A stretch of DNA of 62,770 nucleotides. Origin: a virus. Taxonomy: Duplodnaviria > Caudoviricetes. The stretch is from positions 1 through 62,770 of the IMG/VR virus record IMGVR_UViG_3300038492_000235; one strand, written 5' to 3'. Below are positions 40,669-51,325 of the stretch, one piece after another. The position numbers and the translations under genes were made by a program. Every line of letters begins with the position of its first letter. Position 1 is the stretch's first letter. The notes beneath the pieces were generated by a model, which was not told where the DNA came from, ran no database searches, and saw only the letters and a program-made list of their open reading frames with translations.

Positions 40669-43017
40669 ATGGCAAAAGGAAACAACAAGGATGCTATCGC
40701 ATTTCTTAAGCAGCATGCCCCGGATGGGTTATGGGTATTAACAGCGATTCGGCCGGATGAAAACTACAAAATAGAAACCCGCACATTCGACATACATACC
40801 GAGGATAAGTGTCTCGAATGGTTAAAGACTCGCAACGGTAAAGACAATATCTACTTTTCCATCAACCAGCCTGAAAACCGGATGTCCAAAAAGGCTGAAC
40901 GTGCTGATATTGCTCGGATGGAATGGATACATGTTGATGTGGACCCTCGGGCCCGAGAAGATATCAAGTCCGAGCAAAGACGGATCAAAAAGTTGCTGAC
41001 TACTGATTTACCGGAAGGATTGCCCAAACCAACATGGGTGATTTTCTCGGGTGGTGGATACCAAGCAGCATGGAGATTAGCAAATGCTATCGAGGTTAAC
41101 GGAGACACAGAAAAAATTGATGAGGCAACTCGATATAACCAGCAGATCGAAATCCTACTGGGCGGCGACAGTTGCCACAACATCGACCGTATCTTCAGGC
41201 TCCCTGGCACTGTCAATCTCCCAAATAGCAAAAAGCGCGAAGCTGGGAGAATTCCTACTGCTGCAAAAGTAGTATATTTTGACGACACGCGCTATCCTGT
41301 GCAATTATTCACAAAGTCTCAGCCTATTCAAATGGCTAATGAGATAACTCACAGGTCAACTGCCCAGGTCAATGTGCCTACTACTGACGTAGTTCGTTAC
41401 GAAGACTTGGAATTTCTTGACCAGTATCGAGTGCCGGACAGGGTAAAAGTTGTAATTGCTCAGGGACGGGACCCTGAGAGGCCGTTAGAGGGCAAAAGGG
41501 GTGATCAGAGTGGTTCGGCATGGCTGTTCTATGCTTGCGTCCAAATGGCGCGCTGCAAGGTGCCTGACGACATCATTTTCTCACTGATCACTGACTCCGG
41601 TTGGGCAATTAGCAAGCATGTGCTTAAAGCTGGCAGAAATGCCCATAAAACTGCTATCAGACAAATAGCCCGAGCTAAAGAAGCTGCGGTTGATCCGAAT
41701 CTCTGTATGATGAACGATAAGCATGCCGTTATCGGTAACTATCACGGTCGCTGTGTCGTTATTGAGGAAATTGAAGATCCGGTTCTTAGTCGTTCGAAAC
41801 TGGAATTTCAAAGCTTCGATGCTATCAAGCAGCGTTACTGCAATCAACGTGTGCAAATCGGCAAAGATAAAGACGACAATCCGGTTTACCAGGAACTTGG
41901 TAAATGGTGGATTTACCATCAGCATCGCCGTCAATACGAGCACGTAACCTTCGCTCCTGGGCGAGAGACAAATGGCATTTACAATCTTTGGCGTGGCTTT
42001 TCATATGAGTCAGTTCCAGGTGATTGCAGTATCTATTTAGATCACGTCAAGCGCAATGTCTGCAATGGCGATGAAGAGGTCTATGAATACGTGCTGAACT
42101 GGATGGCTCGAACAGTGCAATTCCCCGCTACTTCTGGGCAAGTTGCTATTGTTGTGCGCGGTGAAAAAGGAACCGGAAAAAGCAAATTCGCTGAAGTATT
42201 CGGGGCCTTGTTTGGTAGGCATTTTATACCGTTATCGAATCCGGCTCACTTGGTAGGTAGTTTCAATATCCATTTGAGAGATGCCGTAGTGGTATTTGCT
42301 GATGAGGCATTCTTTGCAGGCGATAAACGTCATACGAATGTTCTTAAGCACCTTATCACGGGCCCAGAGATGGCCGTAACGCCCAAAGGGGTAGATACGG
42401 GCTTCTCAGCGAATTTTGTGCATCTTATCATGGCTTCTAATGAGTCACACGTTATTCCGGCATCGGGCAACGAACGTAGATTCTTGATGCTTGAAGTTGG
42501 CAATCAAAACATGGAAGATTTTGAATTTTTCAGTGCTCTTGACAAGCAAATGGATAACGGAGGATTCGAGGGGCTATTGCATATGCTAATGACCCGAGAC
42601 ATCAGTAACTTCTTAGTTCAGAAAGTGCCCAGGACGGCAGCGCTCCATCAGCAGAAGCTACATGGGCTTAATCCTACCCAACAATGGTGGATTCAAGTGC
42701 TTGAGAATGGCGCTGTTGGCGACGACAGTTCATGGCAAAGTGAAGTATTTACTGAAGCTATTTTCGAAGATTATATTGACTATTGCAACACCATGAGAAT
42801 CACACATCGGCAAAGTCCAACTCAGATTGGCATATTCTTGAATGAATACTGCCCTGGAATTGTTGGGGCCGGTAAGAAGATCAGGCAAGTCGAAATAATG
42901 GGCGAAGACGGCATGACCGGCTATGTTCAGAAGCGTAAGAAATTTTACAGGATGCCAAGCCTGGAAACGTGCCGTGAGCGCTGGGAAGAATTGGTAGGTG
43001 ACTATGAGTGGCAATAA
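40669..43017 (+). CDS. Primase-helicase (RepB-like AEP primase + SF3-like ATPase)
   Basis: HVDVD, SGGGYQ, RIFRLPGT; GEKGTGKS, FADEA, ASN. Confidence 0.9.
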   Translation: MAKGNNKDAIAFLKQHAPDGLWVLTAIRPDENYKIETRTFDIHTEDKCLEWLKTRNGKDNIYFSINQPENRMSKKAERADIARMEWIHVDVDPRAREDIKSEQRRIKKLLTTDLPEGLPKPTWVIFSGGGYQAAWRLANAIEVNGDTEKIDEATRYNQQIEILLGGDSCHNIDRIFRLPGTVNLPNSKKREAGRIPTAAKVVYFDDTRYPVQLFTKSQPIQMANEITHRSTAQVNVPTTDVVRYEDLEFLDQYRVPDRVKVVIAQGRDPERPLEGKRGDQSGSAWLFYACVQMARCKVPDDIIFSLITDSGWAISKHVLKAGRNAHKTAIRQIARAKEAAVDPNLCMMNDKHAVIGNYHGRCVVIEEIEDPVLSRSKLEFQSFDAIKQRYCNQRVQIGKDKDDNPVYQELGKWWIYHQHRRQYEHVTFAPGRETNGIYNLWRGFSYESVPGDCSIYLDHVKRNVCNGDEEVYEYVLNWMARTVQFPATSGQVAIVVRGEKGTGKSKFAEVFGALFGRHFIPLSNPAHLVGSFNIHLRDAVVVFADEAFFAGDKRHTNVLKHLITGPEMAVTPKGVDTGFSANFVHLIMASNESHVIPASGNERRFLMLEVGNQNMEDFEFFSALDKQMDNGGFEGLLHMLMTRDISNFLVQKVPRTAALHQQKLHGLNPTQQWWIQVLENGAVGDDSSWQSEVFTEAIFEDYIDYCNTMRITHRQSPTQIGIFLNEYCPGIVGAGKKIRQVEIMGEDGMTGYVQKRKKFYRMPSLETCRERWEELVGDYEWQ

Positions 43018-43256
43018 GAAAATCTATACAGTGCATCAGGCAGGGAACCTCAGAACTACTGAGCTACACCTGTCTGTATGCCCTTGCTGTAAAAGAACGG
43101 CTAATGTTCAGGTTCGCCGTCGTAACACTCAGTATGCCAATGACGAGGCCAACTGGCTATTGTCCTGTAATGATTGCTTTATTGAAGATTGTGAGCAGTG
43201 GGAAGAACGTTGGCATGAGTTACTTTCAAGTATTTATTAAAAAGTGAATTTTTTAC

Positions 43257-43285
43257 TTGACTTATCGATGAGGGTGTCGTATATT
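43257..43285 (+). promoter_or_regulatory. sigma70-like promoter driving the Y/tRNA-Ro60 operon
   Basis: TTGACT-N17 (contains TGAG)-TATATT. Confidence 0.65.
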
Positions 43286-43320
43286 GTAAGGGATGATTGA
43301 ATAACACAAGGGAATGTGTG

Positions 43321-43461
43321 ATGAAGAAATGGAGATTCTTAATCCGAGTTTGTAGTTATTGTTGGTTGCGAAAGTTTCAAGGGTTTACACGAAGCGTAGC
43401 GTTCGGAATGACCCATACTATCTGTGACCACTGTATGAAAAAAGGTAAGCATTTGAAATAA
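43321..43461 (+). CDS. 46-aa zinc-finger-like protein (not in ORF track)
   Basis: MKKWRFLIRVCSYC...THTICDHCMKKGKHLK; stop lies 2 nt before the first RNA. Confidence 0.6.
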   Translation: MKKWRFLIRVCSYCWLRKFQGFTRSVAFGMTHTICDHCMKKGKHLK

Positions 43462-43463
43462 TT

Positions 43464-43584
43464 GGGGCTGTTGCCAGTTGGTTGGCGACCCTTTACCGGA
43501 ACCCTTGTTAGTTGCAGCTATGACTATTGTTGTAGGTAACTGAACGGGAAAAGGTTATCTTTGGTTCGATTCCAAACAGCCCCG
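43464..43584 (+). ncRNA. tRNA-Y chimera 1: tRNA body whose anticodon arm is replaced by a permuted Y-like module
   Basis: Acceptor GGGGCUG/CAGCCCC, D arm GCCA/UGGC, T arm UUUGG-UUCGAUU-CCAAA; insert ~43489-43559 with CUUGU...ACUGA-N9-GGUUAUC. Confidence 0.8.
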
Positions 43585-43591
43585 CAAAAAT

Positions 43592-43719
43592 GCGGCTTGT
43601 AGCTCAGTTGGTAGAGCAACGTAATTTTCCCTGAGCAATCCCTTGTCCCTTGAGGACTGAAGTTTTAGGGTTATCGCATTGAACGCCGTAGGTCGTGGGT
43701 TCGAGTCCCACCAAGTCGC
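43592..43719 (+). ncRNA. tRNA-Y chimera 2 (residual loop AUUGAAC; identity unclear)
   Basis: Canonical D and T arms; 54-nt insert 43622-43675 splits stem ACG|GC that pairs with GCCGU. Confidence 0.85.
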
Positions 43720-43739
43720 CTAAAAGATCATTGAAACAT

Positions 43740-43868
43740 GCTGTCTGTAGCTCAATTGGCAGAGCGCTAAAAACCCGTTTTTAGCCAACTTGTTCCGTAG
43801 GGGACTGATTTAAAAATGGTTATCGACTTCTAATCGAGAGGTTGCAGGTTCGAGTCCTGTCAGACAGC
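43740..43868 (+). ncRNA. tRNA-Y chimera 3: tRNA-Arg(UCU)-like with Y module in the 5' anticodon stem
   Basis: 55-nt insert 43769-43823; removing it gives CUCGA-CUUCUAA-UCGAG. Confidence 0.85.
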
Positions 43869-43874
43869 CAATAT

Positions 43875-43947
43875 TGCGGGATGTTAGCAGTGGTAGCTAG
43901 TTGGCCTCATAAGCCAAAGGTCGCGGGTTCAAATCCCGCTCCCGCAA
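43875..43947 (+). tRNA. tRNA-Met(CAU), initiator-like
   Basis: Cloverleaf, loop CUCAUAA, fMet-like acceptor and T arm. Confidence 0.9.
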
Positions 43948-43951
43948 CAAA

Positions 43952-44075
43952 ACGAAGTTTATCAGTAGCGGACGTTCCATGTAAAATACTAGTTAAGGAG
44001 CAGTCAGACTGAAAAAGGTTCAAGTTGATCGACTGGATTTGCCTATGGCACAATGGATGCCTTGGCTGGCTTCGT
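43952..44075 (+). ncRNA. Unassigned structured RNA inside the Y/tRNA array
   Basis: Terminal stem ACGAAGUU/GGCUUCGU, inner CAGUC/GACUG and UGCC/GGCA. Confidence 0.5.
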
Positions 44076-44081
44076 AATAAT

Positions 44082-44235
44082 AGCCGAGTGGTGGAATTGG
44101 CAGACACGGCACCTCAAAAAGTCTTTTGCCAAACCCTTGTTTCCAAACACTGCTTCTGGAAACTGAAGGTTGAAGGTTATCGGAAAAGTGCTGGACCGTA
44201 AAAAGTCCTTGCAGGTTCAAATCCTGCCTCGGCTA
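44082..44235 (+). ncRNA. tRNA-Y chimera 4: tRNA-Leu(CAA)-like with Y module in the anticodon loop
   Basis: Leu-type D loop, long variable arm, A73; 68-nt insert after CUCAAAA; GGCAC/GUGCU stem. Confidence 0.85.
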
Positions 44236-44247
44236 CAATTGAAATAA

Positions 44248-44314
44248 TGCTGGACTGAAGCATCAGGGTTATCATTCGGAGATAAAAGTCCTGAACGCAA
44301 TATCTTGTTCGGCA
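44248..44314 (+). ncRNA. Free-standing Y-RNA-like element A
   Basis: UGCUGGAC(U)GA pairs with UUGUUCGGCA; ACUGA-N8-GGUUAUC. Confidence 0.8.
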
Positions 44315-44324
44315 GCTATATAAG

Positions 44325-44400
44325 AGAACGGACTGAAGCATATCGGTTATCTTAGACTATTCCTCTAAACGAGTCCGAAACGCAATACCTTGTTCGTTCT
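44325..44400 (+). ncRNA. Free-standing Y-RNA-like element B
   Basis: AGAACGGAC(U)GA pairs with UUGUUCGUUCU; ACUGA-N8-GGUUAUC. Confidence 0.8.
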
Positions 44401-44440
44401 AATCCTTTACCCCATTACTTGCTCTTAGGAGGGCTGAATC

Positions 44441-46033
44441 ATGAGTAATACTTTCAAGAATCTTGCCGGTCACGGTAAGAGAGTTACACCCCAGACAGAA
44501 CCAATCGTAGGTCGTGAAAGCGATATGGCTCAAAATAACGCAGGAGGTTTTACCTTCCAGGTTGGCGACTTTGAGCAACTTCGCAGATTCCTAATCCTGG
44601 GATCGGATGGCGGAACTTACTACGCCGGTCAACGTGCCCACACTTATCAAAATATTGCCTGCTTGCAGCGCTGCATTGCTGAAGATGGCAAGGCCACTGT
44701 TGATCTGATCGTTGAAATTTCGAAAGCGGGTCGTGCCCCGAAAAATGATCCGGCCATTTATGCACTGGCAGCATGCGCTTCAGCAAACGACTTGGAAACT
44801 CGTCAATATGCACTGGCGCATTTGAATTCTGTCTGCCGTATCGGAACGCACTTGTTCCACTTCAACGCATTCCTGAAAGGTATGCGTGGCCGATCAAAGG
44901 CTGTTAACCGTGCTGTTGAAGGTTGGTATACTGCTCGGGACTACAACTCACTGGCATACCAATTGGTGAAATACCAGCAACGTGACGGTTGGAGCCATCG
45001 GGATCTTTTACGGTTGGTTAAGCCCAAAACCGATGATCCGGTTGTGAGCGCAATGTATGCCTGGGCGGTAGGTAAAGAGTATGATGCCTCACTGTTGCCC
45101 AACGTAATTAAGGGCTACGAAACTGCCAAGGGCGAAAGCACAACTCCATCGGCTTATGTGGTTAAAGAGTATGGCTTAACTCGTGAAATGCTGCCAACTC
45201 ACTGGCTAAACGATGTCGGTATCTGGGAAGCTCTACTGGAAAATATGCCTGTAGGTGCATTGATTCGTAACCTGGGCAAAATGACTTCCATTGGAGTAAT
45301 CAAGCCCTTGTCAACTGGTTTAGGTCATGTCCTGAATAAGCTGGGCAGCGAAAGCATCTTGAAACGTGCTCGCGTCCATCCGATTCAATTACTGACAGCC
45401 CTGGCAACGTATCGTTCCGGCAGCGGTTTCCGTGGATCTTTAACGTGGAATCCGGTTCCACAAGTAACAAGTGCCCTGGAAGATGCTTTCTACAAGTCAT
45501 TCGATAATGTAGAGTCCACAGGGAAGCGCTGGTTGCTGGGCCTTGATGTATCTGGCTCAATGTCATTCAGCGGCCATGTTGGATCTTTGAACTTAACGCC
45601 CAGAGAACTTAGCGGGGCAATGGCAATGGTTACTGCTCGTTCGGAATCTCAGTATCACTTCATGGGATTCTGTGACAAATTTGTTCCATTGGACATTACT
45701 GCTAACGACTCAATTCAATCGGTGCTTGGTAAGATCAGCAACTTACCTTTTGGTAGAACTGATTGCTCCTTACCGATGGTATGGGCCTTGAAAAACAAAG
45801 TTGAAGTTGACGCCTTTGTGATCTATACTGACAATGAAACATATGCAGGTGCAATTCATCCTGCCCAAGCATTGCATCAATATCGCCAGAAAATGGGTAT
45901 CGATGCCAAGCTGATCGTTGTCGGAATGACTGCTACCAAATTCACAATTGCCGATCCGCAAGATCCCGGTATGCTGGACATGGTAGGGTTCGATACTTCA
46001 GCGCCAAATCTGATGGCTGAGTTCGTCAAATAG
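44441..46033 (+). CDS. rsr: Ro60/Rsr (TROVE + vWA) RNA-binding protein
   Basis: NNAGGF, LRRFLILGS, KYQQRDGWSHRDLLRL, ALIRNLGKMT, MIDAS DVSGSM, TDNET, GMLDMVGFD. Confidence 0.96.
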   Translation: MSNTFKNLAGHGKRVTPQTEPIVGRESDMAQNNAGGFTFQVGDFEQLRRFLILGSDGGTYYAGQRAHTYQNIACLQRCIAEDGKATVDLIVEISKAGRAPKNDPAIYALAACASANDLETRQYALAHLNSVCRIGTHLFHFNAFLKGMRGRSKAVNRAVEGWYTARDYNSLAYQLVKYQQRDGWSHRDLLRLVKPKTDDPVVSAMYAWAVGKEYDASLLPNVIKGYETAKGESTTPSAYVVKEYGLTREMLPTHWLNDVGIWEALLENMPVGALIRNLGKMTSIGVIKPLSTGLGHVLNKLGSESILKRARVHPIQLLTALATYRSGSGFRGSLTWNPVPQVTSALEDAFYKSFDNVESTGKRWLLGLDVSGSMSFSGHVGSLNLTPRELSGAMAMVTARSESQYHFMGFCDKFVPLDITANDSIQSVLGKISNLPFGRTDCSLPMVWALKNKVEVDAFVIYTDNETYAGAIHPAQALHQYRQKMGIDAKLIVVGMTATKFTIADPQDPGMLDMVGFDTSAPNLMAEFVK

Positions 46034-46045
46034 GTTCTGCGATAG

Positions 46046-46069
46046 GGCAGCGGTTGATACGCCGCTGCC
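46046..46069 (+). other. GC-rich hairpin after rsr
   Basis: GGCAGCGG-loop-CCGCTGCC, no U-tract. Confidence 0.45.
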
Positions 46070-46096
46070 TGTTCGAGGCAGGGCCTTGTATCTGGT

Positions 46097-46169
46097 CTTC
46101 CTGGTAGCTCATGCGGACATAGAGCGCGTATTTATACGAGGTTCCCAGGTTCGAATCCTGGACAGGAAG
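46097..46169 (+). ncRNA. tRNA-like RNA with truncated anticodon arm
   Basis: Acceptor, D and T arms present; anticodon arm is only CGUA-UUUA-UACG. Confidence 0.75.
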
Positions 46170-46180
46170 CAAATTTAGAA

Positions 46181-46939
46181 ATGGAGAGCATTATGCACCA
46201 ATCGAGTTTAGTAGTTGACAGAGAACAGTATAACCGTTTTGTAGAATTGATGCCGGAACTTACTGGCTCTGAAGTATATTTCTTGTCGTTGTCCGCAAGA
46301 TCTAAGTATCTGACTGATGACGAGCGTGAAAAATACAAGCTAACCGGAGCCGAAATGTTCAGTCGGCAAACAGCATTTGATAAGCCTGGGCTTGAATACG
46401 CTCTCGTAAAAATGGAAGCGGAACTTGGTTACAAGAGAACGAAATCCGGCCAAGAATTTCCGGCTCATGCTCTGGTTGTTTATGTGAATGTAAATCCAAG
46501 TTCACTGCCCAAGGCATACGGTAAATTTATGTCGCAAATGGCTAAGATTCAGCTTGAAGCCTTTGAAACGGCCATTACCGGTAAGGAACCTGACTTTAAA
46601 GGATTCCATAACATGCCCAGGAAGATTCTCAGTGCGATTCAAGCAGCAAAGTCTCGTCGGATCTGGGTAGATATCGATATTGATCTGGGCAGTGCCAAGG
46701 GTGATCAACAAGTGTTATTTGAAATCAAGGGGATCTTTGACGAGGAAATTATCATTCAAACTCGTTCTGGTTTCCATGCTTTAGTTGCCAAAGAACGTGC
46801 TGGCAATTACTCAAGAGTTGTTAAAATGATTAACCATAGGCTCTCAGAGTTTGGTGGTGAATGTCAGTATAACAGCAATGCAATGGTTCCTATGCCTGGA
46901 ACCGTGCAGGGCGGAAGTTTAGTAAAATTTATTGACTGA
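46181..46939 (+). CDS. Divergent AEP (primase-polymerase)-like protein
   Basis: WVDIDID, QTRSGFH, VPMPGT match the three AEP motifs in order. Confidence 0.5.
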   Translation: MESIMHQSSLVVDREQYNRFVELMPELTGSEVYFLSLSARSKYLTDDEREKYKLTGAEMFSRQTAFDKPGLEYALVKMEAELGYKRTKSGQEFPAHALVVYVNVNPSSLPKAYGKFMSQMAKIQLEAFETAITGKEPDFKGFHNMPRKILSAIQAAKSRRIWVDIDIDLGSAKGDQQVLFEIKGIFDEEIIIQTRSGFHALVAKERAGNYSRVVKMINHRLSEFGGECQYNSNAMVPMPGTVQGGSLVKFID

Positions 46940-46950
46940 AAGGAACATTA

Positions 46951-47925
46951 ATGGCACTACATCGTTATGAAGATTACCGGCCAAAAACCATTGGCAAGTA
47001 TATCATCGAAAAGGCCAATATCATTTTAGCTGATTGGCATTCTCAAGGTTATGACTTGACAGTCCGACAACTGTATTACCAATTTGTCGCGAGAGATTGG
47101 TTCCCAGGCTCTTGGGTTGATCCGGCAACTGGTTCGACCAATAACCAAAAGTCTTACGAAAAGATGGGGCGAATTGTTAGCCGTGCACGTAAGGCCGGTA
47201 TGATCGACTGGAAGTATCTTGTTGACCTTGGCAGAGTTCCGAAGAAAGCCGGGGAATGGGACAATATCACAGACTTGGTAGAAACTGCTATCAGAGCATA
47301 CCGGAAGGATCGCTGGGTAGGTCAGCAATACCATGTGGAAGTAGCTGCTGAGAAAGACGCTGCAACGAGCATTGTCAATCCCATCGCGCATAAGTGGCAC
47401 ATTGCCTACACTGCCAATAAGGGCTATACAAGTTCATCGGCAATGTATCAAATGGCCCAGAGAATGCGAGAAGCGGCAGCGATATTTGACAAGATTCCGG
47501 TATTAATTTATGTCGGCGACCATGACCCGAGCGGATGCCATATGTCAGTTGATTTGGCAGATCGTATGCGGGAAATGTTTGGTGAGCAACAGTCTTTGAA
47601 TGACTGGCATGGTGGATTTGAGTATGATGATATGCCCTATGCACTGAATAATATGATTGTTGACCGTGTTGCACTGAACATGGATCAAATTCAACAATAC
47701 GAACCGCCAGTGAATCCGGTCAAAGATACAGACAGCCGGAGTCCGGCATATGTAGCCGAGCACGGAGAGGATTGCTGGGAGCTTGACGCCTTGCGGCCGG
47801 ATGTGTTGACGGACCTTGTTGAGACAGCAATTTTAAAATACCTTGACAAAGGGAAGTTTGAAGCCGTTATTAAAGAAGAGGTTGAAGATAAAAAGCGTCT
47901 CGAAGAGTTGCTTGAAAAGTTCTAA
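46951..47925 (+). CDS. TopoVI-A/Spo11-like wHTH-TOPRIM protein
   Basis: TVRQLYY, AEKDA, KGY, GDHDPSG, WELDAL. Confidence 0.75.
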   Translation: MALHRYEDYRPKTIGKYIIEKANIILADWHSQGYDLTVRQLYYQFVARDWFPGSWVDPATGSTNNQKSYEKMGRIVSRARKAGMIDWKYLVDLGRVPKKAGEWDNITDLVETAIRAYRKDRWVGQQYHVEVAAEKDAATSIVNPIAHKWHIAYTANKGYTSSSAMYQMAQRMREAAAIFDKIPVLIYVGDHDPSGCHMSVDLADRMREMFGEQQSLNDWHGGFEYDDMPYALNNMIVDRVALNMDQIQQYEPPVNPVKDTDSRSPAYVAEHGEDCWELDALRPDVLTDLVETAILKYLDKGKFEAVIKEEVEDKKRLEELLEKF

Positions 47926-47935
47926 GAAATAAATG

Positions 47936-47992
47936 GCCCAGAAGAGGCTATAAAAACATGTGATGCACTTACTTGTTTACCCTCTTCTGGGC
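47936..47992 (+). other. Long hairpin at start of main tRNA cluster
   Basis: 12-bp perfect stem GCCCAGAAGAGG/CCTCTTCTGGGC. Confidence 0.55.
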
Positions 47993-47998
47993 AGACTT

Positions 47999-48070
47999 GG
48001 GGCCTTAGCTCAGTGGCAGAGCGGCGCTTTTGCATGGCGTTGGTCGAGAGTTCGAGTCTCTCAGGCTCCA
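47999..48070 (+). tRNA. tRNA-Ala(UGC)
   Basis: Cloverleaf, G3-U70. Confidence 0.95.
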
Positions 48071-48077
48071 CAAGTTA

Positions 48078-48149
48078 GATGCTGTGACCGAGTGGCTAGG
48101 TGTAAGCCTGCAAAGCTTATTCACGTCGGTTCGAATCCGACCGGCATCT
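48078..48149 (+). tRNA. tRNA-Cys(GCA)
   Basis: Cloverleaf, U73. Confidence 0.95.
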
Positions 48150-48291
48150 CAATCTCAAGGGTGCAATTCCCGTAACACCGAGTAGGTGTGCGAGACTGGG
48201 CAGCGGACAATCTTTCGATTGTTGGGCGCTAATCCAACATGGCTATTAGAATGTTCATGACATCCGGTAACAAGGTTGCTGCTCCACCTTA

Positions 48292-48364
48292 GATTCCGTA
48301 GCTCAGAGGCCAGAGCGGGTGGCTGTTAACCACTTAGTCGTAGGTTCGAATCCTACCGGAATCT
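48292..48364 (+). tRNA. tRNA-Asn(GUU)
   Basis: Cloverleaf, loop CUGUUAA. Confidence 0.95.
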
Positions 48365-48367
48365 CAA

Positions 48368-48422
48368 TGAGATAAGAAGTGCAAAGCGGCTTTACCCAGG
48401 GTTCGATTCCCTGCTTATCTCA
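48368..48422 (+). ncRNA. Minimal tRNA-like RNA (acceptor + T arm, ~20-nt connector)
   Basis: GAGAUAAG/CUUAUCUC stacked on CAGGG-UUCGAUU-CCCUG. Confidence 0.7.
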
Positions 48423-48427
48423 AACAT

Positions 48428-48499
48428 GTTCCTGAAGGCAGATGGCGAGCCGCTTGGCTTTCACCCAAGTGTTAGTGGGTTCAATTCCCACCAGGAATA
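48428..48499 (+). tRNA. tRNA-Glu(UUC)
   Basis: Cloverleaf, loop CUUUCAC. Confidence 0.93.
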
Positions 48500-48601
48500 C
48501 AATGTCGTAAGTGAGCCAATACCGGTTAAAGCTTGCTGGGGAAAAGGGCCTTTTGACAACCTAGACAAATTACTGCAACGCCCTTTTTGCAGTAAAATTT
48601 C

Positions 48602-48676
48602 GCCTCAATAGCTCAGTGGATTTAGAGCGGCTGTCTTGTAAACAGCGGGTCGGGGGTTCGAATCCCTCTTGAGGCT
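48602..48676 (+). tRNA. tRNA-Thr(UGU)
   Basis: Cloverleaf, loop CUUGUAA. Confidence 0.95.
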
Positions 48677-48679
48677 CAA

Positions 48680-48827
48680 TGAGCGTGACGGTAAAGGAGA
48701 TGTGGTGCCCTTACACCGTGATCAGCGCTACGCTCGGCACCCAATGGTAACGATTGGTCCGGCTTTAGGGAACGTTCCGAGGTAATTCCCGGCACCCTTA
48801 CAAGGTTCAAATCCTTGCAATCGTTCA
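48680..48827 (+). ncRNA. Enlarged tRNA-like RNA (~148 nt)
   Basis: UGAGCG/CGUUCA ends, T arm CAAGG-UUCAAAU-CCUUG, several internal stems. Confidence 0.6.
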
Positions 48828-48829
48828 AC

Positions 48830-48902
48830 GCCTTAGTAGCTCAACGGACAAGAGCGTCTGGCTTCCACCCAGGGGATAAGGGTTCGATTCCCTTCTAAGG
48901 CT
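48830..48902 (+). tRNA. tRNA-Gly(UCC)
   Basis: Cloverleaf, loop CUUCCAC, U73. Confidence 0.93.
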
Positions 48903-48912
48903 CAAATAACAT

Positions 48913-48987
48913 AGGCCCATAGCTCAGTCTGGTCAGAGTAGGGGACTCCAAATCCCTTTGTCGAGGGTTCGAATCCTTCTGGGTCTG
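48913..48987 (+). tRNA. tRNA-Trp(CCA)
   Basis: Cloverleaf, G73. Confidence 0.95.
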
Positions 48988-48992
48988 CAAAT

Positions 48993-49083
48993 GCGTCTGA
49001 GGCATACTGTTGGTTCTGTAGCGGCAGGCTGTAAACCTGTTCCCTTCGGGTGAAGATCGTTGGTTCGATTCCAACCGGGCGCA
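48993..49083 (+). tRNA. tRNA-Tyr(GUA)
   Basis: Loop CUGUAAA, variable arm, unusually long D region. Confidence 0.88.
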
Positions 49084-49102
49084 CAAAGTTTTACCTAAAC
49101 AC

Positions 49103-49175
49103 GCGGTGTTAGCATAGCGGATTATGCACCACCCTGTCACGGTGGAGGACGCGGGTTCGAGTCCCGTGCATCGCG
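49103..49175 (+). tRNA. tRNA-Asp(GUC)
   Basis: Cloverleaf, G73. Confidence 0.95.
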
Positions 49176-49185
49176 CAAAATGTTC

Positions 49186-49258
49186 TTCCTCGTAGCTCAG
49201 TGGACAGAGCATCGGGTTTCTACCCCGAGTGTCGCGGGTTCGAATCCTGCCGAGGAAA
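49186..49258 (+). tRNA. tRNA-Arg(UCU)
   Basis: Cloverleaf, loop UUUCUAC. Confidence 0.93.
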
Positions 49259-49266
49259 CAAATAAC

Positions 49267-49295
49267 TTGACATTACAATGAGGAAGTATTATATT
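49267..49295 (+). promoter_or_regulatory. Internal promoter in the tRNA cluster
   Basis: TTGACA-N17 (TGAG)-TATATT. Confidence 0.65.
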
Positions 49296-49318
49296 ATGAA
49301 AGAACCTGAGAAGATCAT

Positions 49319-49391
49319 TGCTCCATAGCTCAATGGCTAGAGCATCCGGCTTTTAACCGGGAGGTTCTAGGTTCGAGTCCCAGTGGGGCAA
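49319..49391 (+). tRNA. tRNA-Lys(UUU)
   Basis: Cloverleaf. Confidence 0.93.
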
Positions 49392-49405
49392 CAACTATTT
49401 TATTT

Positions 49406-49480
49406 CAGCCTATGGGCCAGTTGGCCGTGGCCGTCTGGTTTGGGACCAGAAGATCGAAGGTTCGAATCCTTCTAGGCTGA
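49406..49480 (+). tRNA. tRNA-Pro(UGG)
   Basis: Cloverleaf, C1-G72. Confidence 0.95.
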
Positions 49481-49483
49481 CAA

Positions 49484-49600
49484 AAGAGTGCTGCTTTCAA
49501 CATTGCAAGCGGACAAAGGTGAATGGGCATGTAGCTCACACAACGCTGAGTTCCACTTGAAGCTGGAAGCCGTTCTTACTGAGGAGATCGCAGCACTCTT
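49484..49600 (+). ncRNA. Unassigned multi-stem RNA
   Basis: 11-bp perfect terminal stem AAGAGUGCUGC/GCAGCACUCUU plus inner hairpins. Confidence 0.6.
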
Positions 49601-49604
49601 ATAT

Positions 49605-49677
49605 GTGGCTCTAGCTGAGACGGTTTAGCGCCGGAGTGAAGTCCCGGAGCAGGTGGGTTCGATTCCCACGGGTCACA
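49605..49677 (+). tRNA. tRNA-Phe(GAA), atypical anticodon loop
   Basis: Loop GUGAAGU with A31-C39 mismatch. Confidence 0.85.
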
Positions 49678-49764
49678 CAAATACAGGCACGACGGGGATG
49701 CCTATCTGAAAGTGCGTTTAGGCTTTACTCTGATCAAGTATAGGTCAAGTGCTACCCCGGATAT

Positions 49765-49847
49765 GGCGGTATGGTGGAATTGGTATACGCAGTGGTTTTA
49801 GAAACCACCGGGCTAGTCCCATGTAGGTTCGAGTCCTACTACCGCTA
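49765..49847 (+). tRNA. tRNA-Leu(UAG)
   Basis: Class II cloverleaf. Confidence 0.95.
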
Positions 49848-49859
49848 CAATAAGCGCCT

Positions 49860-49942
49860 GGGAACGTGATGGAACTGGTATACATAGCAGACTTAAAATC
49901 TGTGGGCCCTGTGCCGTGCGGGTTCGAGTCCCGCCGTTCCTA
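49860..49942 (+). tRNA. tRNA-Leu(UAA)
   Basis: Class II cloverleaf. Confidence 0.95.
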
Positions 49943-49951
49943 CTAAAATAT

Positions 49952-50035
49952 AGAGGGTGCCGCGCTATGGTGCGCAAGCGGTCTTGAAAACCGTTGGGGT
50001 CGGAAACGGCAGGGGTTCGAATCCTCCACCCTCTG
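49952..50035 (+). tRNA. tRNA-Ser(UGA)
   Basis: Class II cloverleaf, G73. Confidence 0.9.
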
Positions 50036-50041
50036 CAACAT

Positions 50042-50116
50042 TCCCTTGTAGCTCAGTGGAATTAGAGCAATGCGCTACGAACGCATGTGTCGGGAGTTCG
50101 AATCTCTCCAAGGGAA
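50042..50116 (+). tRNA. tRNA-Arg(ACG)
   Basis: Cloverleaf. Confidence 0.95.
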
Positions 50117-50122
50117 CAAATT

Positions 50123-50374
50123 ATGAATAGAAAACAAAAAGTCTCAGTAAGGCAAGAATTAGGTAAGCTAATTGCCAGCCACAGAAAACTATGTGGTTTG
50201 ACCCAAAAGAAGTTGGCGGAGTTAGTCGGAGAACAACGAGATTACATACGCCAATTAGAAAGAGGTGCAATAAAGCGACCTGATGTTTTTGTCATGCAAC
50301 AATTAGCCAGAAGATTTGGAGTGACAGTTAATCACTTGCTATTAAAAAGTTTGATTAATTCAAGAAATAACTGA
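50123..50374 (+). CDS. XRE-family HTH protein inside the tRNA cluster
   Basis: GLTQKKLAELVG...YIRQLERG; start moved to ATG 50123; its TGA stop is the first 3 nt of the next tRNA. Confidence 0.85.
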   Translation: MNRKQKVSVRQELGKLIASHRKLCGLTQKKLAELVGEQRDYIRQLERGAIKRPDVFVMQQLARRFGVTVNHLLLKSLINSRNN

Positions 50375-50444
50375 CCCATAATTCAGTCGGTAGAATACCC
50401 CGCTCATAACGGGACAGTCGCAGGTTCGAGCCCTGCTGGGTCAA
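50372..50444 (+). tRNA. tRNA(CAU), probably Ile2 (lysidine) rather than Met
   Basis: Acceptor UGACCCA/UGGGUCA identical to this genome's tRNA-Ile(GAU). Confidence 0.85.
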
Positions 50445-50452
50445 CGCAACAT

Positions 50453-50528
50453 TCCTCTGTAGCTTAGTCTGGTTCAAAGCGCTGGCCTTACAAGTCAGAT
50501 ATCGTAGGTTCGAATCCTACCGGGGGAA
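50453..50528 (+). tRNA. tRNA-Val(UAC)
   Basis: Cloverleaf. Confidence 0.95.
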
Positions 50529-50554
50529 CAAGATTATACCATAAAGGATATGCA

Positions 50555-50887
50555 ATGCAAGAATTGGTTTGGTTTTTATCAGGGTTAGGAATATTAGTGT
50601 TTCTTATTGCAATTATATTGAATTGGGACCGCTATAATGCTAAAACCTCAATACCAGCTATTGAAAAAATGGACAGGGTTGAGGAAATCTTGACAGATGG
50701 CAAGGGACTATTTGACTTTTTAGCGGAGCAATCTTGCAACTCACAAGAGCTTATCGTAGGTAGTTGGTGGATACGGCAATTGGAGCACAAAAACATGATT
50801 GACTATATAGACAATTGCCGATTGTTTTTGGGAAAAAGAATAACTTTATCAAGTGAATTGGACGAATACGAAATCCAATTCACTTGA
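50555..50887 (+). CDS. Membrane-anchored hypothetical protein
   Basis: N-terminal TM helix; RBS AAGGA. Confidence 0.6.
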   Translation: MQELVWFLSGLGILVFLIAIILNWDRYNAKTSIPAIEKMDRVEEILTDGKGLFDFLAEQSCNSQELIVGSWWIRQLEHKNMIDYIDNCRLFLGKRITLSSELDEYEIQFT

Positions 50888-50896
50888 TAAGATAAT

Positions 50897-50970
50897 TGAC
50901 CCATAACTCAGTCTGGTAGAGTAGCATCCTGATACGGTGCCGGTCATAGGTTCAAATCCTATTGGGTCAA
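50897..50970 (+). tRNA. tRNA-Ile(GAU)
   Basis: Cloverleaf. Confidence 0.95.
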
Positions 50971-50995
50971 CTAACATTGGTGAATGAACACGTAT

Positions 50996-51070
50996 GGTGA
51001 GTGTAGCTTAGTGGCCGAAAGCACTGCGCTGTGACCGCAGGGAGCGCGGGTTCGAATCCCGTCATTCGCC
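50996..51070 (+). tRNA. tRNA-His(GUG)
   Basis: Cloverleaf with G-1:C73. Confidence 0.95.
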
Positions 51071-51074
51071 CAAC

Positions 51075-51158
51075 GGAAGGTTGGCAGAATTGGTATTGCA
51101 GCGCCCTGCTAAGGCGTAGGCCCTTTGTGGTCTAGGGGTTCGAGTCCCTTACCTTCCG
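51075..51158 (+). tRNA. tRNA-Ser(GCU)
   Basis: Class II cloverleaf. Confidence 0.95.
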
Positions 51159-51166
51159 CAACATAC

Positions 51167-51241
51167 TGCCGGGTGGCGAAATTGGACAAACGCACTTGAT
51201 TTTGAGTCAAGATATTATGGGTTCGAGTCCCATCCCGGTTG
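51167..51241 (+). tRNA. tRNA-Gln(UUG)
   Basis: Cloverleaf, unpaired 1-72, G73. Confidence 0.93.
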
Positions 51242-51325
51242 CAAGATTATTTTTTGATTTAATGCTTGACAATTCGATGAGGATGTATTATACTTATCGA
51301 AACGTTAACGAAAGGACAAATTATC

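What the first reader, a model, noticed from the sequence alone, without database searches (positions are those of the whole stretch)
44248..44440. Two minimal Y RNAs with the animal-type UUAUC motif sit in the rsr leader
Seen: 67- and 76-nt tandem paralogues (GGACUGAAGCAU...GGUUAUC...AGUCC.GA..CGCAAUA.CUUGUUCG) ending 40 nt before the rsr start. Established, from memory: human Y1 begins GGCUGGUCCGAAGGUAGUGAGUUAUC, i.e. UCCGA-N8-AGUUAUC, and UUAUC is the conserved loop motif of nematode stem-bulge RNAs. The spacing here is the same. Inference: this suggests deep conservation of a second functional element, and their position allows Rsr autoregulation of its own mRNA.
Basis: partly seen in the sequence, partly recalled or inferred. 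Interest (0 to 1): 0.75.

Follow-up and report, generated by a model that had tools for sequence, protein, structure and literature searches.

The report
Two small phage Y RNAs before rsr
Two short hairpin RNA genes just upstream of a phage's Ro60 (rsr) gene belong to a very common family of bacterial and phage Y RNAs, and they carry a short conserved word at the same position as in animal Y RNAs.

Summary
Window 44248-44314 (67 nt) and 44325-44400 (76 nt) are tandem paralogues that end 40 nt before the rsr ATG (44441).

A covariance model built only from 28 similar elements beside rsr in other viral contigs finds exactly these two places in the whole 62.8-kb phage genome (31.3 and 28.4 bits; next best E 1.3). 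They are small, YrlB-like Y RNAs. Their ends pair into a Ro60-type bulged helix, GGAC(U)GA / UUGUUC. An 8-position upper stem follows, and the loop opens with UUAUC.

GGNCYGA-N8-GGUUAYC is general. GGTTATC occurs 120 times on the rsr strand against 9 on the other in 80 viral loci, and 218 against 34 in 80 bacterial loci. The spacing is the one printed for human Y4 and mouse Y1 fragments. Chen 2014 had noted part of the word as 'YUAY'. I found no paper that links it to the animal UUAUC.

Autoregulation of rsr is untested. The layout permits it, but the layout is not universal.

Four more Y modules lie upstream (43464-44238), inside tRNA-shaped scaffolds whose ends form the acceptor stem, unlike YrlA. 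Two of them clearly belong to an architecture seen in 17 of 80 bacterial loci, which I did not find described.

Verdict: a new member of a known kind, with a useful cross-kingdom motif link.

The parts
43257..43285 (+). Best sigma-70-like promoter match upstream of the whole RNA array and rsr (TTGACT-17-TATATT)
   Evidence: 10 of 12 positions, the best of the 15 sites found in 42900-48100. No + strand terminator-like site lies between it and rsr. This is a consensus match only.
43464..43587 (+). E1: tRNA-shaped scaffold (acceptor, D arm, T arm) whose anticodon side is replaced by a closed Y hairpin (UUGUUA ... UAACUGA-N8-GGUUAUC)
   Evidence: Sequence. RNAfold gives a 7-bp acceptor, D and T hairpins, z -2.87. 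R2 scores it 33.5 bits, no higher than ordinary tRNAs. The reading of the hairpin is by eye.
43593..43722 (+). E2: complete non-permuted tRNA scaffold with a Y hairpin (UUGUCC-loop-GGACUGA-N8-GGUUAUC) between the D arm and an anticodon-like arm
   Evidence: Model R2, built from 18 such elements of other loci, scores it 86.4 bits (E 2e-22) over the full length. Ordinary tRNAs of the array reach at most 52.5 bits. Acceptor pairing is 7 of 7.
43741..43871 (+). E3: same architecture, with an anticodon arm (loop CUUCUAA) after GGUUAUC
   Evidence: R2 80.9 bits, E 7e-21. RNAfold z -3.18. Rfam tRNA-Sec partial match of 22.7 bits over the tRNA parts.
43875..43948 (+). Ordinary tRNA-Met (CAU) inside the array
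   Evidence: ARAGORN. Rfam tRNA 48.3 bits.
44082..44238 (+). E5: tRNA-Leu-like scaffold (long variable arm) whose anticodon loop carries a Y hairpin (UUGUUUCC-loop-GGAAACUGA-N8-GGUUAUC)
   Evidence: Sequence. Acceptor 7 of 7, with a T arm. RNAfold gives acceptor, variable and T hairpins. R2 scores only 26.9 bits. The reading of the insert is by eye.
44248..44314 (+). Copy A, a minimal Y RNA. 5' strand GGACUGA 44252-44258; GGUUAUC 44267-44273; 3' strand UUGUUC 44305-44310; the ends pair UGCU/GGCA
   Evidence: R1 31.3 bits, E 2.2e-6, full model length. The RNAfold minimum-energy structure equals the family model: bulged lower stem, upper stem and loop; -18.7 kcal/mol, z -2.1.
44325..44400 (+). 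Copy B, a minimal Y RNA. 5' strand 44330-44336; GGUUAUC 44345-44351; 3' strand 44390-44395; the ends pair AGAAC/GUUCU, compensatory relative to copy A
   Evidence: R1 28.4 bits, E 1.4e-5 for 44326-44399. RNAfold -15.3 kcal/mol, z -1.39.
44401..44425 (+). Stretch that resembles only the 3' half of a Y RNA (CCCC-AUUA-CUUGCUC). It ends 16 nt before the ATG
   Evidence: Listed as a 64% third copy of the 25-nt repeat. There is no 5' partner and no R1 hit. Its meaning is unknown.
44427..44433 (+). Shine-Dalgarno-like AGGAGGG of rsr
   Evidence: Read from the sequence.
44441..46033 (+). rsr, the Ro60 orthologue (530 aa)
   Evidence: Pfam vWA_Ro60 2.8e-68 and TROVE 4.2e-39. PHROG 850 'RNA-binding protein' 3.6e-80.

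Best explanation
Copies A and B are genes for two small trans-acting Y RNAs of the hairpin (YrlB-like) class. They partner the phage's own Ro60 protein, Rsr.

Each RNA pairs its 5' and 3' ends into a stem that contains the Ro60-type bulged helix. Here that helix is GGAC(U)GA over UUGUUC, the local version of GGGC(C)GA/UUGCCC in relatives and GGUC(C)GA in animals. Eight positions further on, a G-G closes an upper stem and the loop opens with UUAUC.

The two RNAs are most likely made as part of one long transcript. It would start near 43290 and also carry four tRNA-shaped Y RNAs, a tRNA-Met and the rsr mRNA. Host tRNA- and mRNA-processing nucleases would then cut them out. Once bound to Rsr they would act as Y RNAs do elsewhere: as a gate on the Ro60 ring and as a tether to another factor such as host PNPase.

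The conserved GGUUAUC is most likely a hinge or contact at the top of the Ro60-binding stem. It would set how the variable loop or tRNA-like module sits relative to the ring.

Shown here: family membership, fold, motif conservation and layout. Inferred: transcription, processing, Rsr binding and the role of the motif.
For: (1) Model R1 was built from 28 of the 29 candidates that my script found beside rsr in other viral contigs. It hits only 44248-44314 and 44326-44399 in the complete 62,770-base genome on both strands.

(2) The same model finds 114 hits at E <= 0.01 in 80 bacterial rsr loci that were not used to build it. Of these, 112 are on the rsr strand, and 68 of 80 loci have at least one hit. 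It also finds hits in the unannotated gaps before rsr of the phages Nappy and FuzzBuster.

(3) The fold is supported by covariation. In 15 of 16 RNAalifold pairs, both sides change in at least one sequence and the pair is kept. For the upper stem, which my selection did not constrain, 83% of cells pair against 55.5% in shuffles. The covariation score is 0.719 against 0.229 (0 of 500 shuffles), and it falls when the partners are slid. Copy A and copy B differ from each other by compensatory changes in the terminal stem.

(4) The 5' motif and the word sit at a fixed offset. In 95 unique + strand GGTTATC contexts from viral loci, positions -15 to -10 read GGGCCG in 58-67 of 95. The bacterial figure is 147-171 of 186.

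(5) There is precedent. M. smegmatis YrlA and YrlB lie upstream of rsr and are processed from one precursor (PMC4201824). Thermus phage phiLo has two Y-like RNAs upstream of its Ro60 that bind it and, with it, host PNPase (PMC12135203).

(6) Hinge idea: the conserved UA of this word makes a roughly 30-degree kink in the solved S. Typhimurium YrlA module (10.1101/312249).
Against: There is no expression evidence of any kind. No RNA run holds this DNA, so the ends and the existence of discrete RNAs are unproven.

The thermodynamic signal is modest (z -2.1 and -1.4).

The two copies score low within the family (31 and 28 bits against up to 70 in bacteria).

They depart from the published GNCGAA motif at two positions (ACUGAA). 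In phiLo Yrl2 the C-to-U change at the equivalent spot weakened binding about three-fold.

Rfam has no match here even at E <= 10. It also had none in 15 related loci, so that blank says little.

Part of the lower-stem covariation is by construction, because my script chose partners that pair.

On the role of GGUUAUC: Ro60 binding elsewhere maps to the lower stem. Only that part was resolved in the phiLo complex, so a Ro60 contact is not shown.
Confidence: 0.8

Rival explanations
1. The two elements act in cis as an Rsr-binding leader of the rsr mRNA. When Rsr is in excess it binds the unprocessed leader and lowers (or stabilises) its own message.
For: No promoter-like or terminator-like site lies between the elements and rsr, so they should be on the rsr transcript. 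The last Y module ends within 60 nt of the rsr start in 14 of the 33 viral loci that have an end-paired upstream module. These include separate lineages: L011 25 nt, L014 16 nt, L035 23 nt, L067 21 nt, and the L019 group 40-42 nt. In FuzzBuster it ends 9 nt before the annotated start. Many bacterial hits end at about 2410, just before rsr. A half-Y-like stretch abuts the Shine-Dalgarno word.
Against: Nothing tests it. In the window the Shine-Dalgarno word lies 27 nt beyond the folded RNA and is not part of it. In other loci the Y RNAs lie downstream of rsr or are followed by terminator-like hairpins, so coupling is not a family trait. The same elements occur two to six per locus, far from the start, as expected of trans-acting RNAs. 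Co-transcription by itself is already explained by co-expression of partners (M. smegmatis precedent).
Confidence: 0.15
2. They are decaying duplicates of the upstream tRNA-embedded Y modules, or of each other, and are no longer functional. They resemble the family only by descent.
For: Low model scores relative to bacterial members. A departure from the GNCGAA motif. A further truncated, half-length copy follows them.
Against: Both keep every family feature at the right spacing. They also differ from each other by compensatory changes in the terminal stem (UGCU/GGCA against AGAAC/GUUCU), which indicates selection on pairing. The CUGAA variant is shared by all six modules of this genome and by all four modules of L039 and one of L088. 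That fits a lineage-specific Rsr specificity rather than decay.
Confidence: 0.07
3. They are processing or punctuation signals, or attenuator hairpins, of a tRNA-mRNA operon, with no Ro60 connection of their own.
For: They sit between tRNA-like genes and an mRNA. A stable hairpin before a gene can protect it from 5' decay.
Against: The family is found beside rsr on the rsr strand: 112 of 114 bacterial hits. The window's own 23-tRNA array at 47999-51242 holds none. The conserved words are the Ro60-binding ones. No U-run follows either hairpin.
Confidence: 0.04

Closest known systems
YrlB of M. smegmatis and S. Typhimurium, and Yrn2 of D. radiodurans (small hairpin Y RNAs bound by Rsr; Chen et al. 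2014, PMC4201824)
   Same: A small RNA beside rsr on the same strand. A long hairpin is made by pairing the ends. The Ro60-type motif is near the 5' end. A second Y RNA accompanies tRNA-like ones. In M. smegmatis the RNAs lie upstream of rsr on one precursor.
   Different: Those RNAs were found by immunoprecipitation, and the paper reports that searches with YrlB found orthologues only in other S. enterica serovars. The window's RNAs are unproven as RNAs and carry CUGAA instead of CGAA.
Yrl1 and Yrl2 of Thermus phage phiLo (PMC12135203)
   Same: Two Y-like RNAs directly upstream of a phage Ro60 gene, with a stem-bulge-stem and the CGAA word. They bind the phage Ro60 in gel shifts and form a ternary complex with host PNPase.
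   Different: A different phage lineage. Whether the phiLo RNAs carry GGUUAUC was not visible in the text I read. The window has UGAA where phiLo has CGAA, and phiLo's C-to-U mutant bound about three-fold weaker.
YrlA (tRNA-like Y RNA; Chen 2014; structure in preprint 10.1101/312249)
   Same: The same 5' strand motif followed by the conserved YUAY. Here the full word is GGUUAUC at the same place.
   Different: YrlA has T, acceptor-like and D arms between the two strands of the Ro60 stem. Copies A and B have none. The window's tRNA-shaped neighbours E1-E5 have the opposite topology: free acceptor ends and a closed Y hairpin.
Vertebrate Y RNAs (Y1, Y4) and nematode stem-bulge RNAs
   Same: A bulged Ro60 helix made by the ends, an upper stem, and a loop that opens with UUAUC. 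The distance from GGNCYGA to the word is the same.
   Different: No match to any Rfam model at E <= 10. No polymerase III style U-run. The loop is much smaller. The replication role ascribed to the animal motif has no known bacterial counterpart. A review states that bacterial Y RNAs are not homologous with the vertebrate clades (PMC4726728).

Membership tests
Bacterial/phage Y RNA, small hairpin (YrlB-like) class | Encoded within a few kb of a Ro60/Rsr gene, on the same strand | tested here: met
   Copies end 127 nt and 40 nt before rsr on the + strand.
Bacterial/phage Y RNA, small hairpin (YrlB-like) class | GNCGAAN0-1G motif near the 5' end (Chen 2014) | tested here: not met
   The window has ACUGAAG. 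The first G is A, compensated by a U in the 3' strand. The C before GAA is U. The same C-to-U variant occurs in L039 (4 modules) and L088. Position and spacing are otherwise exact.
Bacterial/phage Y RNA, small hairpin (YrlB-like) class | 5' and 3' ends pair into a stem that holds the Ro60-binding helix | tested here: met
   RNAfold minimum-energy structures. Model alignment over all 66 positions. Covariation in relatives.
Bacterial/phage Y RNA, small hairpin (YrlB-like) class | Sequence-and-structure similarity to elements beside rsr in other genomes | tested here: met
   R1, which holds no window sequence: E 2.2e-6 and 1.4e-5, with nothing else below E 1.3. E-values are rough because the calibration was short.
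Bacterial/phage Y RNA, small hairpin (YrlB-like) class | Exists as a discrete RNA that is bound by Rsr and needs Rsr to accumulate | not testable with these tools
   No RNA run is listed for this DNA. Binding needs an experiment.
YrlA (tRNA-like Y RNA) | T arm, acceptor-like stem-loop and D arm between the two strands of the Ro60 stem | tested here: not met
   Only 38-46 nt lie between GGUUAUC and the 3' strand, with no T or D arm words.
Metazoan Y RNA / sbRNA (Rfam models) | Match to the curated covariance models | tested here: not met
   No Y RNA or sbRNA family appears among the 10 matches at E <= 10 in 43700-44600 or among the 22 gathering-level matches in the window.
Metazoan Y RNA / sbRNA | UUAUC at the 5' end of the loop, at a fixed distance from the Ro60-binding 5' strand | tested here: met
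   Window: GGACUGA-N8-GGUUAUC in both copies. The same N8 is seen in printed human Y4 and mouse Y1 fragments. The motif is described in PMC4450293 and PMC4726728.
Autoregulatory protein-binding mRNA leader | The binding site overlaps or occludes the ribosome-binding site, and the position relative to the start is conserved across homologues | tested here: inconclusive
   The Shine-Dalgarno word lies outside the fold. Proximity to the start recurs in 14 of 33 viral loci but is absent in others.
tRNA-embedded, non-permuted Y RNA (neighbours E2, E3) | 7-bp acceptor made by the ends, a D arm, a Y hairpin, then an anticodon-like arm and a T arm | tested here: met
   R2 scores 86.4 and 80.9 bits for 43593-43722 and 43741-43871, against at most 52.5 for ordinary tRNAs. 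E1 and E5 are not separated from tRNAs by score.

The most novel reading that the evidence does not exclude
GGNCYGA-N8-GGUUAYC is one ancestral 22-nt unit shared by bacterial, phage and animal Y RNAs. All Y RNAs would then be homologous, contrary to the statement in the 2015 review. The animal/nematode 'UUAUC' element would be a Ro60-linked hinge or contact older than any role in DNA replication.

The tRNA-embedded, non-permuted forms found here place UU-AYC exactly at the junction into the anticodon stem. That hints that Y RNAs began as a tRNA carrying a Ro60-binding hairpin at position 26. YrlA would be a permuted descendant and the small hairpin RNAs stripped-down descendants.
Probability: 0.3. 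Interest if true: 0.75.

Novelty: new member of a known kind. Interest (0 to 1): 0.45.

Why it matters
The two RNAs themselves are ordinary. Small Y RNAs beside rsr turn out to be nearly universal, present in 68 of 80 bacterial loci by a model built from phage sequences.

Two things may matter more.

First, the motif link. The word that nematode and vertebrate workers call UUAUC, and that bacterial workers noted as YUAY, is the same word at the same distance from the Ro60-binding strand. That argues for common descent or a common Ro60-linked constraint. It also makes the function of the animal motif testable in simple phage or bacterial systems.

Second, the neighbours. This phage and many bacteria carry Y hairpins inside otherwise complete tRNAs with free acceptor ends, some with an encoded CCA. 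I did not find this architecture described. It could connect Ro60 to tRNA enzymes in a new way.

Tried and rejected
- **Rfam.** No Y family matched in the window at gathering level or at E <= 10. None matched in 15 related loci that visibly hold Y RNAs, so the blank is uninformative.
- **DNA similarity to named phages.** Only the tRNA-Met region matched. No close relative was found.
- **The genome search 'relatives'.** I used the search for related loci instead.
- **Earlier findings.** Closed.
- **UUAUC as the 5' strand of a small anticodon-like hairpin, as in copy A (UUAUC-N7-GAUAA).** Rejected as a general rule. In 30 minimal RNAs only 7 have 4 or more such pairs, no better than shuffled loops.
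- **A YrlA-like reading that spans neighbouring tRNA-shaped units (5' strand of one, 3' strand of the next).** Rejected. The distal pairs covary within units (UAAC/GUUA, GGAC/GUCC, GGGAC/GUUCC, GGAAAC/GUUUCC). The acceptor stems are 7 of 7 within units. Bacterial examples are not adjacent to one another.
- **Expression.** No RNA holder is listed for 43250-44700. Four DNA runs of one study, possibly the source, hold it.
- **Reviews.** PMC10870794, PMC6047535 and PMC6542706 are not held. I cannot exclude that they already make the motif link or describe the tRNA-embedded form. The supplements of Chen 2014, which hold its alignments, were not seen.
- **The loose bacterial test without a UUAUC requirement.** It has a high background (128 candidates on the opposite strand against 185), so only the excess is meaningful.

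Full report
**What is there.** The window is a complete 62,770-base virus record. The 530-aa ORF at 44441-46033 is a Ro60 orthologue, Rsr (Pfam vWA_Ro60 2.8e-68, TROVE 4.2e-39; PHROG 850).
- The repeat finder reports their 5' parts (22 nt, 86%) and 3' parts (25 nt, 88%) as direct repeats.
- Each starts with GGACUGAAG, has GGUUAUC fifteen positions after the first G, and ends with CUUGUUCG.
- GGTTATC is over-represented in the window: 20 against 6.25 +/- 2.6, with 0 of 100 shuffles as high.
- Six + strand copies are packed into the 900 nt before rsr.
- The longer pattern ACTGAAGNNTNNNGGTTATC has four exact matches, all in that stretch.

**Are they Y RNAs?** Rfam gives no Y-type match here, at gathering level or at E <= 10. 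It also finds none in 15 related loci (54 matches, all tRNA or tmRNA), so I built my own test.
- With Rsr as query I fetched 80 viral-contig loci (38-55% identity).
- A script that looks for the 5' strand motif, the word, and a pairing 3' strand 40-70 nt downstream found 29 non-redundant small candidates.
- I aligned 28 of them, leaving out the 83-nt L039:4593-4675 (A2).
- RNAalifold predicts a lower stem made by the two ends and an 8-pair upper stem whose last two pairs use the GG of GGUUAUC. In 15 of 16 pairs, both sides change in at least one sequence and the pair is kept.
- The lower stem was partly selected for pairing by my script. The upper stem was not. For it, 83.0% of cells pair against 55.5% in shuffles, and the covariation score is 0.719 against 0.229 (0 of 500 shuffles as high). 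Both measures drop when partners are slid by 1-3 columns.
- The covariance model from this alignment (R1) holds no window sequence. Run with filters off over both strands of the whole genome, it finds 44248-44314 (31.3 bits, E 2.2e-6) and 44326-44399 (28.4 bits, E 1.4e-5), and nothing else below E 1.3. E-values are rough because of the short calibration.
- RNAfold on copy A returns the family structure as the minimum-energy fold (z -2.1). Copy B is weaker (z -1.39).
- The two copies differ in the terminal stem by compensatory changes (UGCU/GGCA against AGAAC/GUUCU).

**How common is the family?**
- R1 finds 114 hits at E <= 0.01 in 80 bacterial rsr loci from many phyla, fetched. Of these, 112 are on the rsr strand, and 68 of 80 loci have a hit.
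- In cultured actinophages, whose records annotate nothing there, it finds small Y RNAs in the gap before rsr. Nappy has two flanking a classical YrlA. FuzzBuster has two after a YrlA, the last ending 9 nt before the annotated start.
- This matches published cases. M. smegmatis YrlA and YrlB lie upstream of rsr and are cut from one precursor, and every studied species has a small hairpin Y RNA besides the tRNA-like one (PMC4201824; I read results parts 1 and 3 and passages).
- Thermus phage phiLo has two Y-like RNAs upstream of its Ro60 that bind it and host PNPase (PMC12135203; passages and sections 18-19).
- So copies A and B are new members of a known kind.

**The Ro60-binding helix.** The relatives' consensus is GGGC(C)GA paired with UUGCCC. 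The third position covaries with its partner and the second C is unpaired. The window has GGAC(U)GA with UUGUUC, so A-U replaces G-C or G-U and the bulge is U.
- This departs from the published GNCGAA motif at two positions.
- All six modules of this genome share it, as do the four modules of L039 and one of L088.
- In phiLo Yrl2 the corresponding C-to-U change weakened binding about three-fold.
- I read it as a lineage-specific specificity. That is inference.

**The UUAUC claim.** It is conserved.
- In the 80 viral loci GGTTATC occurs 120 times on the rsr strand and 9 times on the other. In 95 unique contexts, positions -15 to -10 read GGGCCG in 58-67 of 95.
- In the 80 bacterial loci the counts are 218 against 34, and 147-171 of 186.
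- I also tested without requiring the word. Among 45 non-redundant end-paired candidates on the rsr strand of the viral loci (4 on the other strand), the 5-mer at offset 17 is TTATC in 21, TTACC in 4 and TTATT in 1. At least 3 more carry the word shifted by one base.
- The looser bacterial version has a high background (185 against 128), but TTATC (31) and TTACC (11) are the only enriched 5-mers, and neither is among the ten commonest 5-mers listed for the other strand.
- Printed fragments give GGUCCGA-N8-GGUUAUC for human Y4 (PMC5493846) and GGUCCGA-N8-AGUUAUC for mouse Y1 (PMC4597359). This is the same spacing as GGACUGA-N8-GGUUAUC here.
- I could check only these two animal RNAs.

**Is the link already in print?** Part of the word is. 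Chen 2014 notes a conserved 'YUAY' that begins the V loop of YrlA. The YrlA structure preprint reports that its conserved UA makes a roughly 30-degree kink.
- A search for 'UUAUC' with 'Y RNA' found 5 papers, none on bacteria.
- 'GGUUAUC' searched alone matched 286 papers. None of the 15 best-ranked listed concerns bacterial Y RNAs.
- The 2015 review says the bacterial RNAs are not homologous with the vertebrate clades.
- Three Wolin-laboratory reviews and all supplements were not available, so I cannot claim the link is unpublished.

**What the word does.** This is not shown. In minimal RNAs it does not pair inside the loop more than chance allows (7 of 30 with 4 or more pairs), so it is conserved as sequence. 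Its fixed distance from the Ro60 helix, whatever follows it (a small loop, a V loop and T arm, or an anticodon stem), points to a role tied to the Ro60-bound stem. With the kink seen in YrlA, a hinge or contact that orients the variable module is my preferred reading. Against a simple affinity role, Ro60 binding maps to the lower stem in the systems studied, and only that part was resolved in the phiLo complex.

**Surroundings.** The best promoter-like site is at 43257-43285. No + strand promoter-like site lies between 43987 and rsr, and no terminator-like site lies before rsr. Between the promoter and copy A lie a 46-aa ORF with two CxxC pairs, then four tRNA-shaped elements and a tRNA-Met.
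- Each of the four elements holds a further Y module, but in the opposite topology to YrlA. The ends form a 7-bp acceptor stem, and the Y stem is a closed hairpin: 3' strand, loop, 5' strand, N8, GGUUAUC.
- In E1, E2 and E3 the hairpin follows the D arm. In E5 it sits in the anticodon loop, and in E1 it takes the place of the anticodon arm.
- The distal pairs covary within each unit.
- A strict script finds the same architecture in 21 modules of 17 of the 80 bacterial loci and in 3 of the 80 viral loci. Five of the 24 non-redundant examples have CCA after the discriminator.
- A model from 18 of those 24 (A3, R2; 21 of 26 pairs with compensatory change) scores E2 at 86.4 bits and E3 at 80.9 bits. 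The best ordinary tRNA of the phage scores 52.5. E1 (33.5) and E5 (26.9) are not separated from tRNAs.
- I found no description of this form in the papers I could search.

**Autoregulation.** The layout allows it, since the RNAs should be part of the rsr primary transcript. Closeness of the last Y RNA to the rsr start recurs: within 60 nt in 14 of the 33 viral loci with an end-paired upstream module, out of 64 loci with enough flank. Many of those loci are related to one another.
- Elsewhere the Y RNAs lie downstream of rsr, or a terminator-like hairpin intervenes.
- In the window the Shine-Dalgarno word (44427-44433) is outside the fold.
- An unexplained stretch at 44401-44425 that looks like the 3' half of a Y RNA sits between copy B and the Shine-Dalgarno word.
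- Nothing here tests regulation.

**Verdict.** The identification as Y RNAs is well supported (0.8). The motif conservation is real and general. The regulatory idea remains a hypothesis (0.15, and not exclusive of the main reading). No expression data exist for this DNA.

Noticed in passing
window 43464-44238: Four tRNA-shaped elements (E1 43464-43587, E2 43593-43722, E3 43741-43871, E5 44082-44238) each carry a closed Y hairpin with GGUUAUC. The ends form the acceptor stem, which is the opposite topology to published YrlA. E2 and E3 score 86 and 81 bits with a model built from other genomes.
   Followed up: yes
L088:2310-2439, L092:2158-2282, L129:4453-4581 and 21 others: The same non-permuted 'tRNA with a Ro60-binding hairpin between the D arm and the anticodon arm' occurs in 17 of 80 bacterial rsr loci. 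It often has a 7-nt anticodon-like loop, and 5 of 24 examples have an encoded CCA. I did not find it in the papers I could search.
   Followed up: partly
window 43537-44336 (all six modules); L039:4599-4956; L088:2371: Every Y module of this phage has CUGAA where the family has CCGAA, that is, a bulged U instead of C. Two other lineages share this. It suggests co-variation with the cognate Rsr.
   Followed up: no
window 44401-44425: An orphan stretch resembling only the 3' half of a Y RNA (CCCC-AUUA-CUUGCUC) ends 16 nt before the rsr ATG and abuts the Shine-Dalgarno word.
   Followed up: no
window 43949-44081: A 133-nt spacer between tRNA-Met and E5 contains the word GACUGAA (about 44008) but has no GGUUAUC at the family offset and no model hit. 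It may be a degraded module.
   Followed up: no
window 43321-43461: A 46-aa ORF with two CxxC pairs lies between the promoter-like site and the first tRNA-shaped element. It has no Pfam or PHROG match.
   Followed up: partly
window 47999-51242: An array of 23 tRNA genes on the + strand, plus tRNA-Met at 43875, covers all 20 amino acids in a 62.8-kb phage. rsr, an unknown 252-aa ORF and a topoisomerase-like ORF (PHROG 6247) sit between the Y RNAs and the array.
   Followed up: partly
L081:2087-2432 (phage Nappy), L082:2190-2476 (phage FuzzBuster): Cultured actinophages have a YrlA plus two small Y RNAs in the unannotated gap before their Ro-like gene. The GenBank records annotate none of them.
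   Followed up: partly
papers read: Eukaryotic tRNA-Val 5' halves printed in those tables carry GUGGUUAUCAC in the D arm, the same word and left context as Y4 (GUGGGUUAUC). This is a lead for a tRNA origin of the Y RNA 5' region, nothing more.
   Followed up: no
L069:1063-1488, L057:6433-6657, L083:4460-4861: tmRNA genes (one of them permuted) and tRNA arrays often sit next to rsr in phage loci.
   Followed up: no
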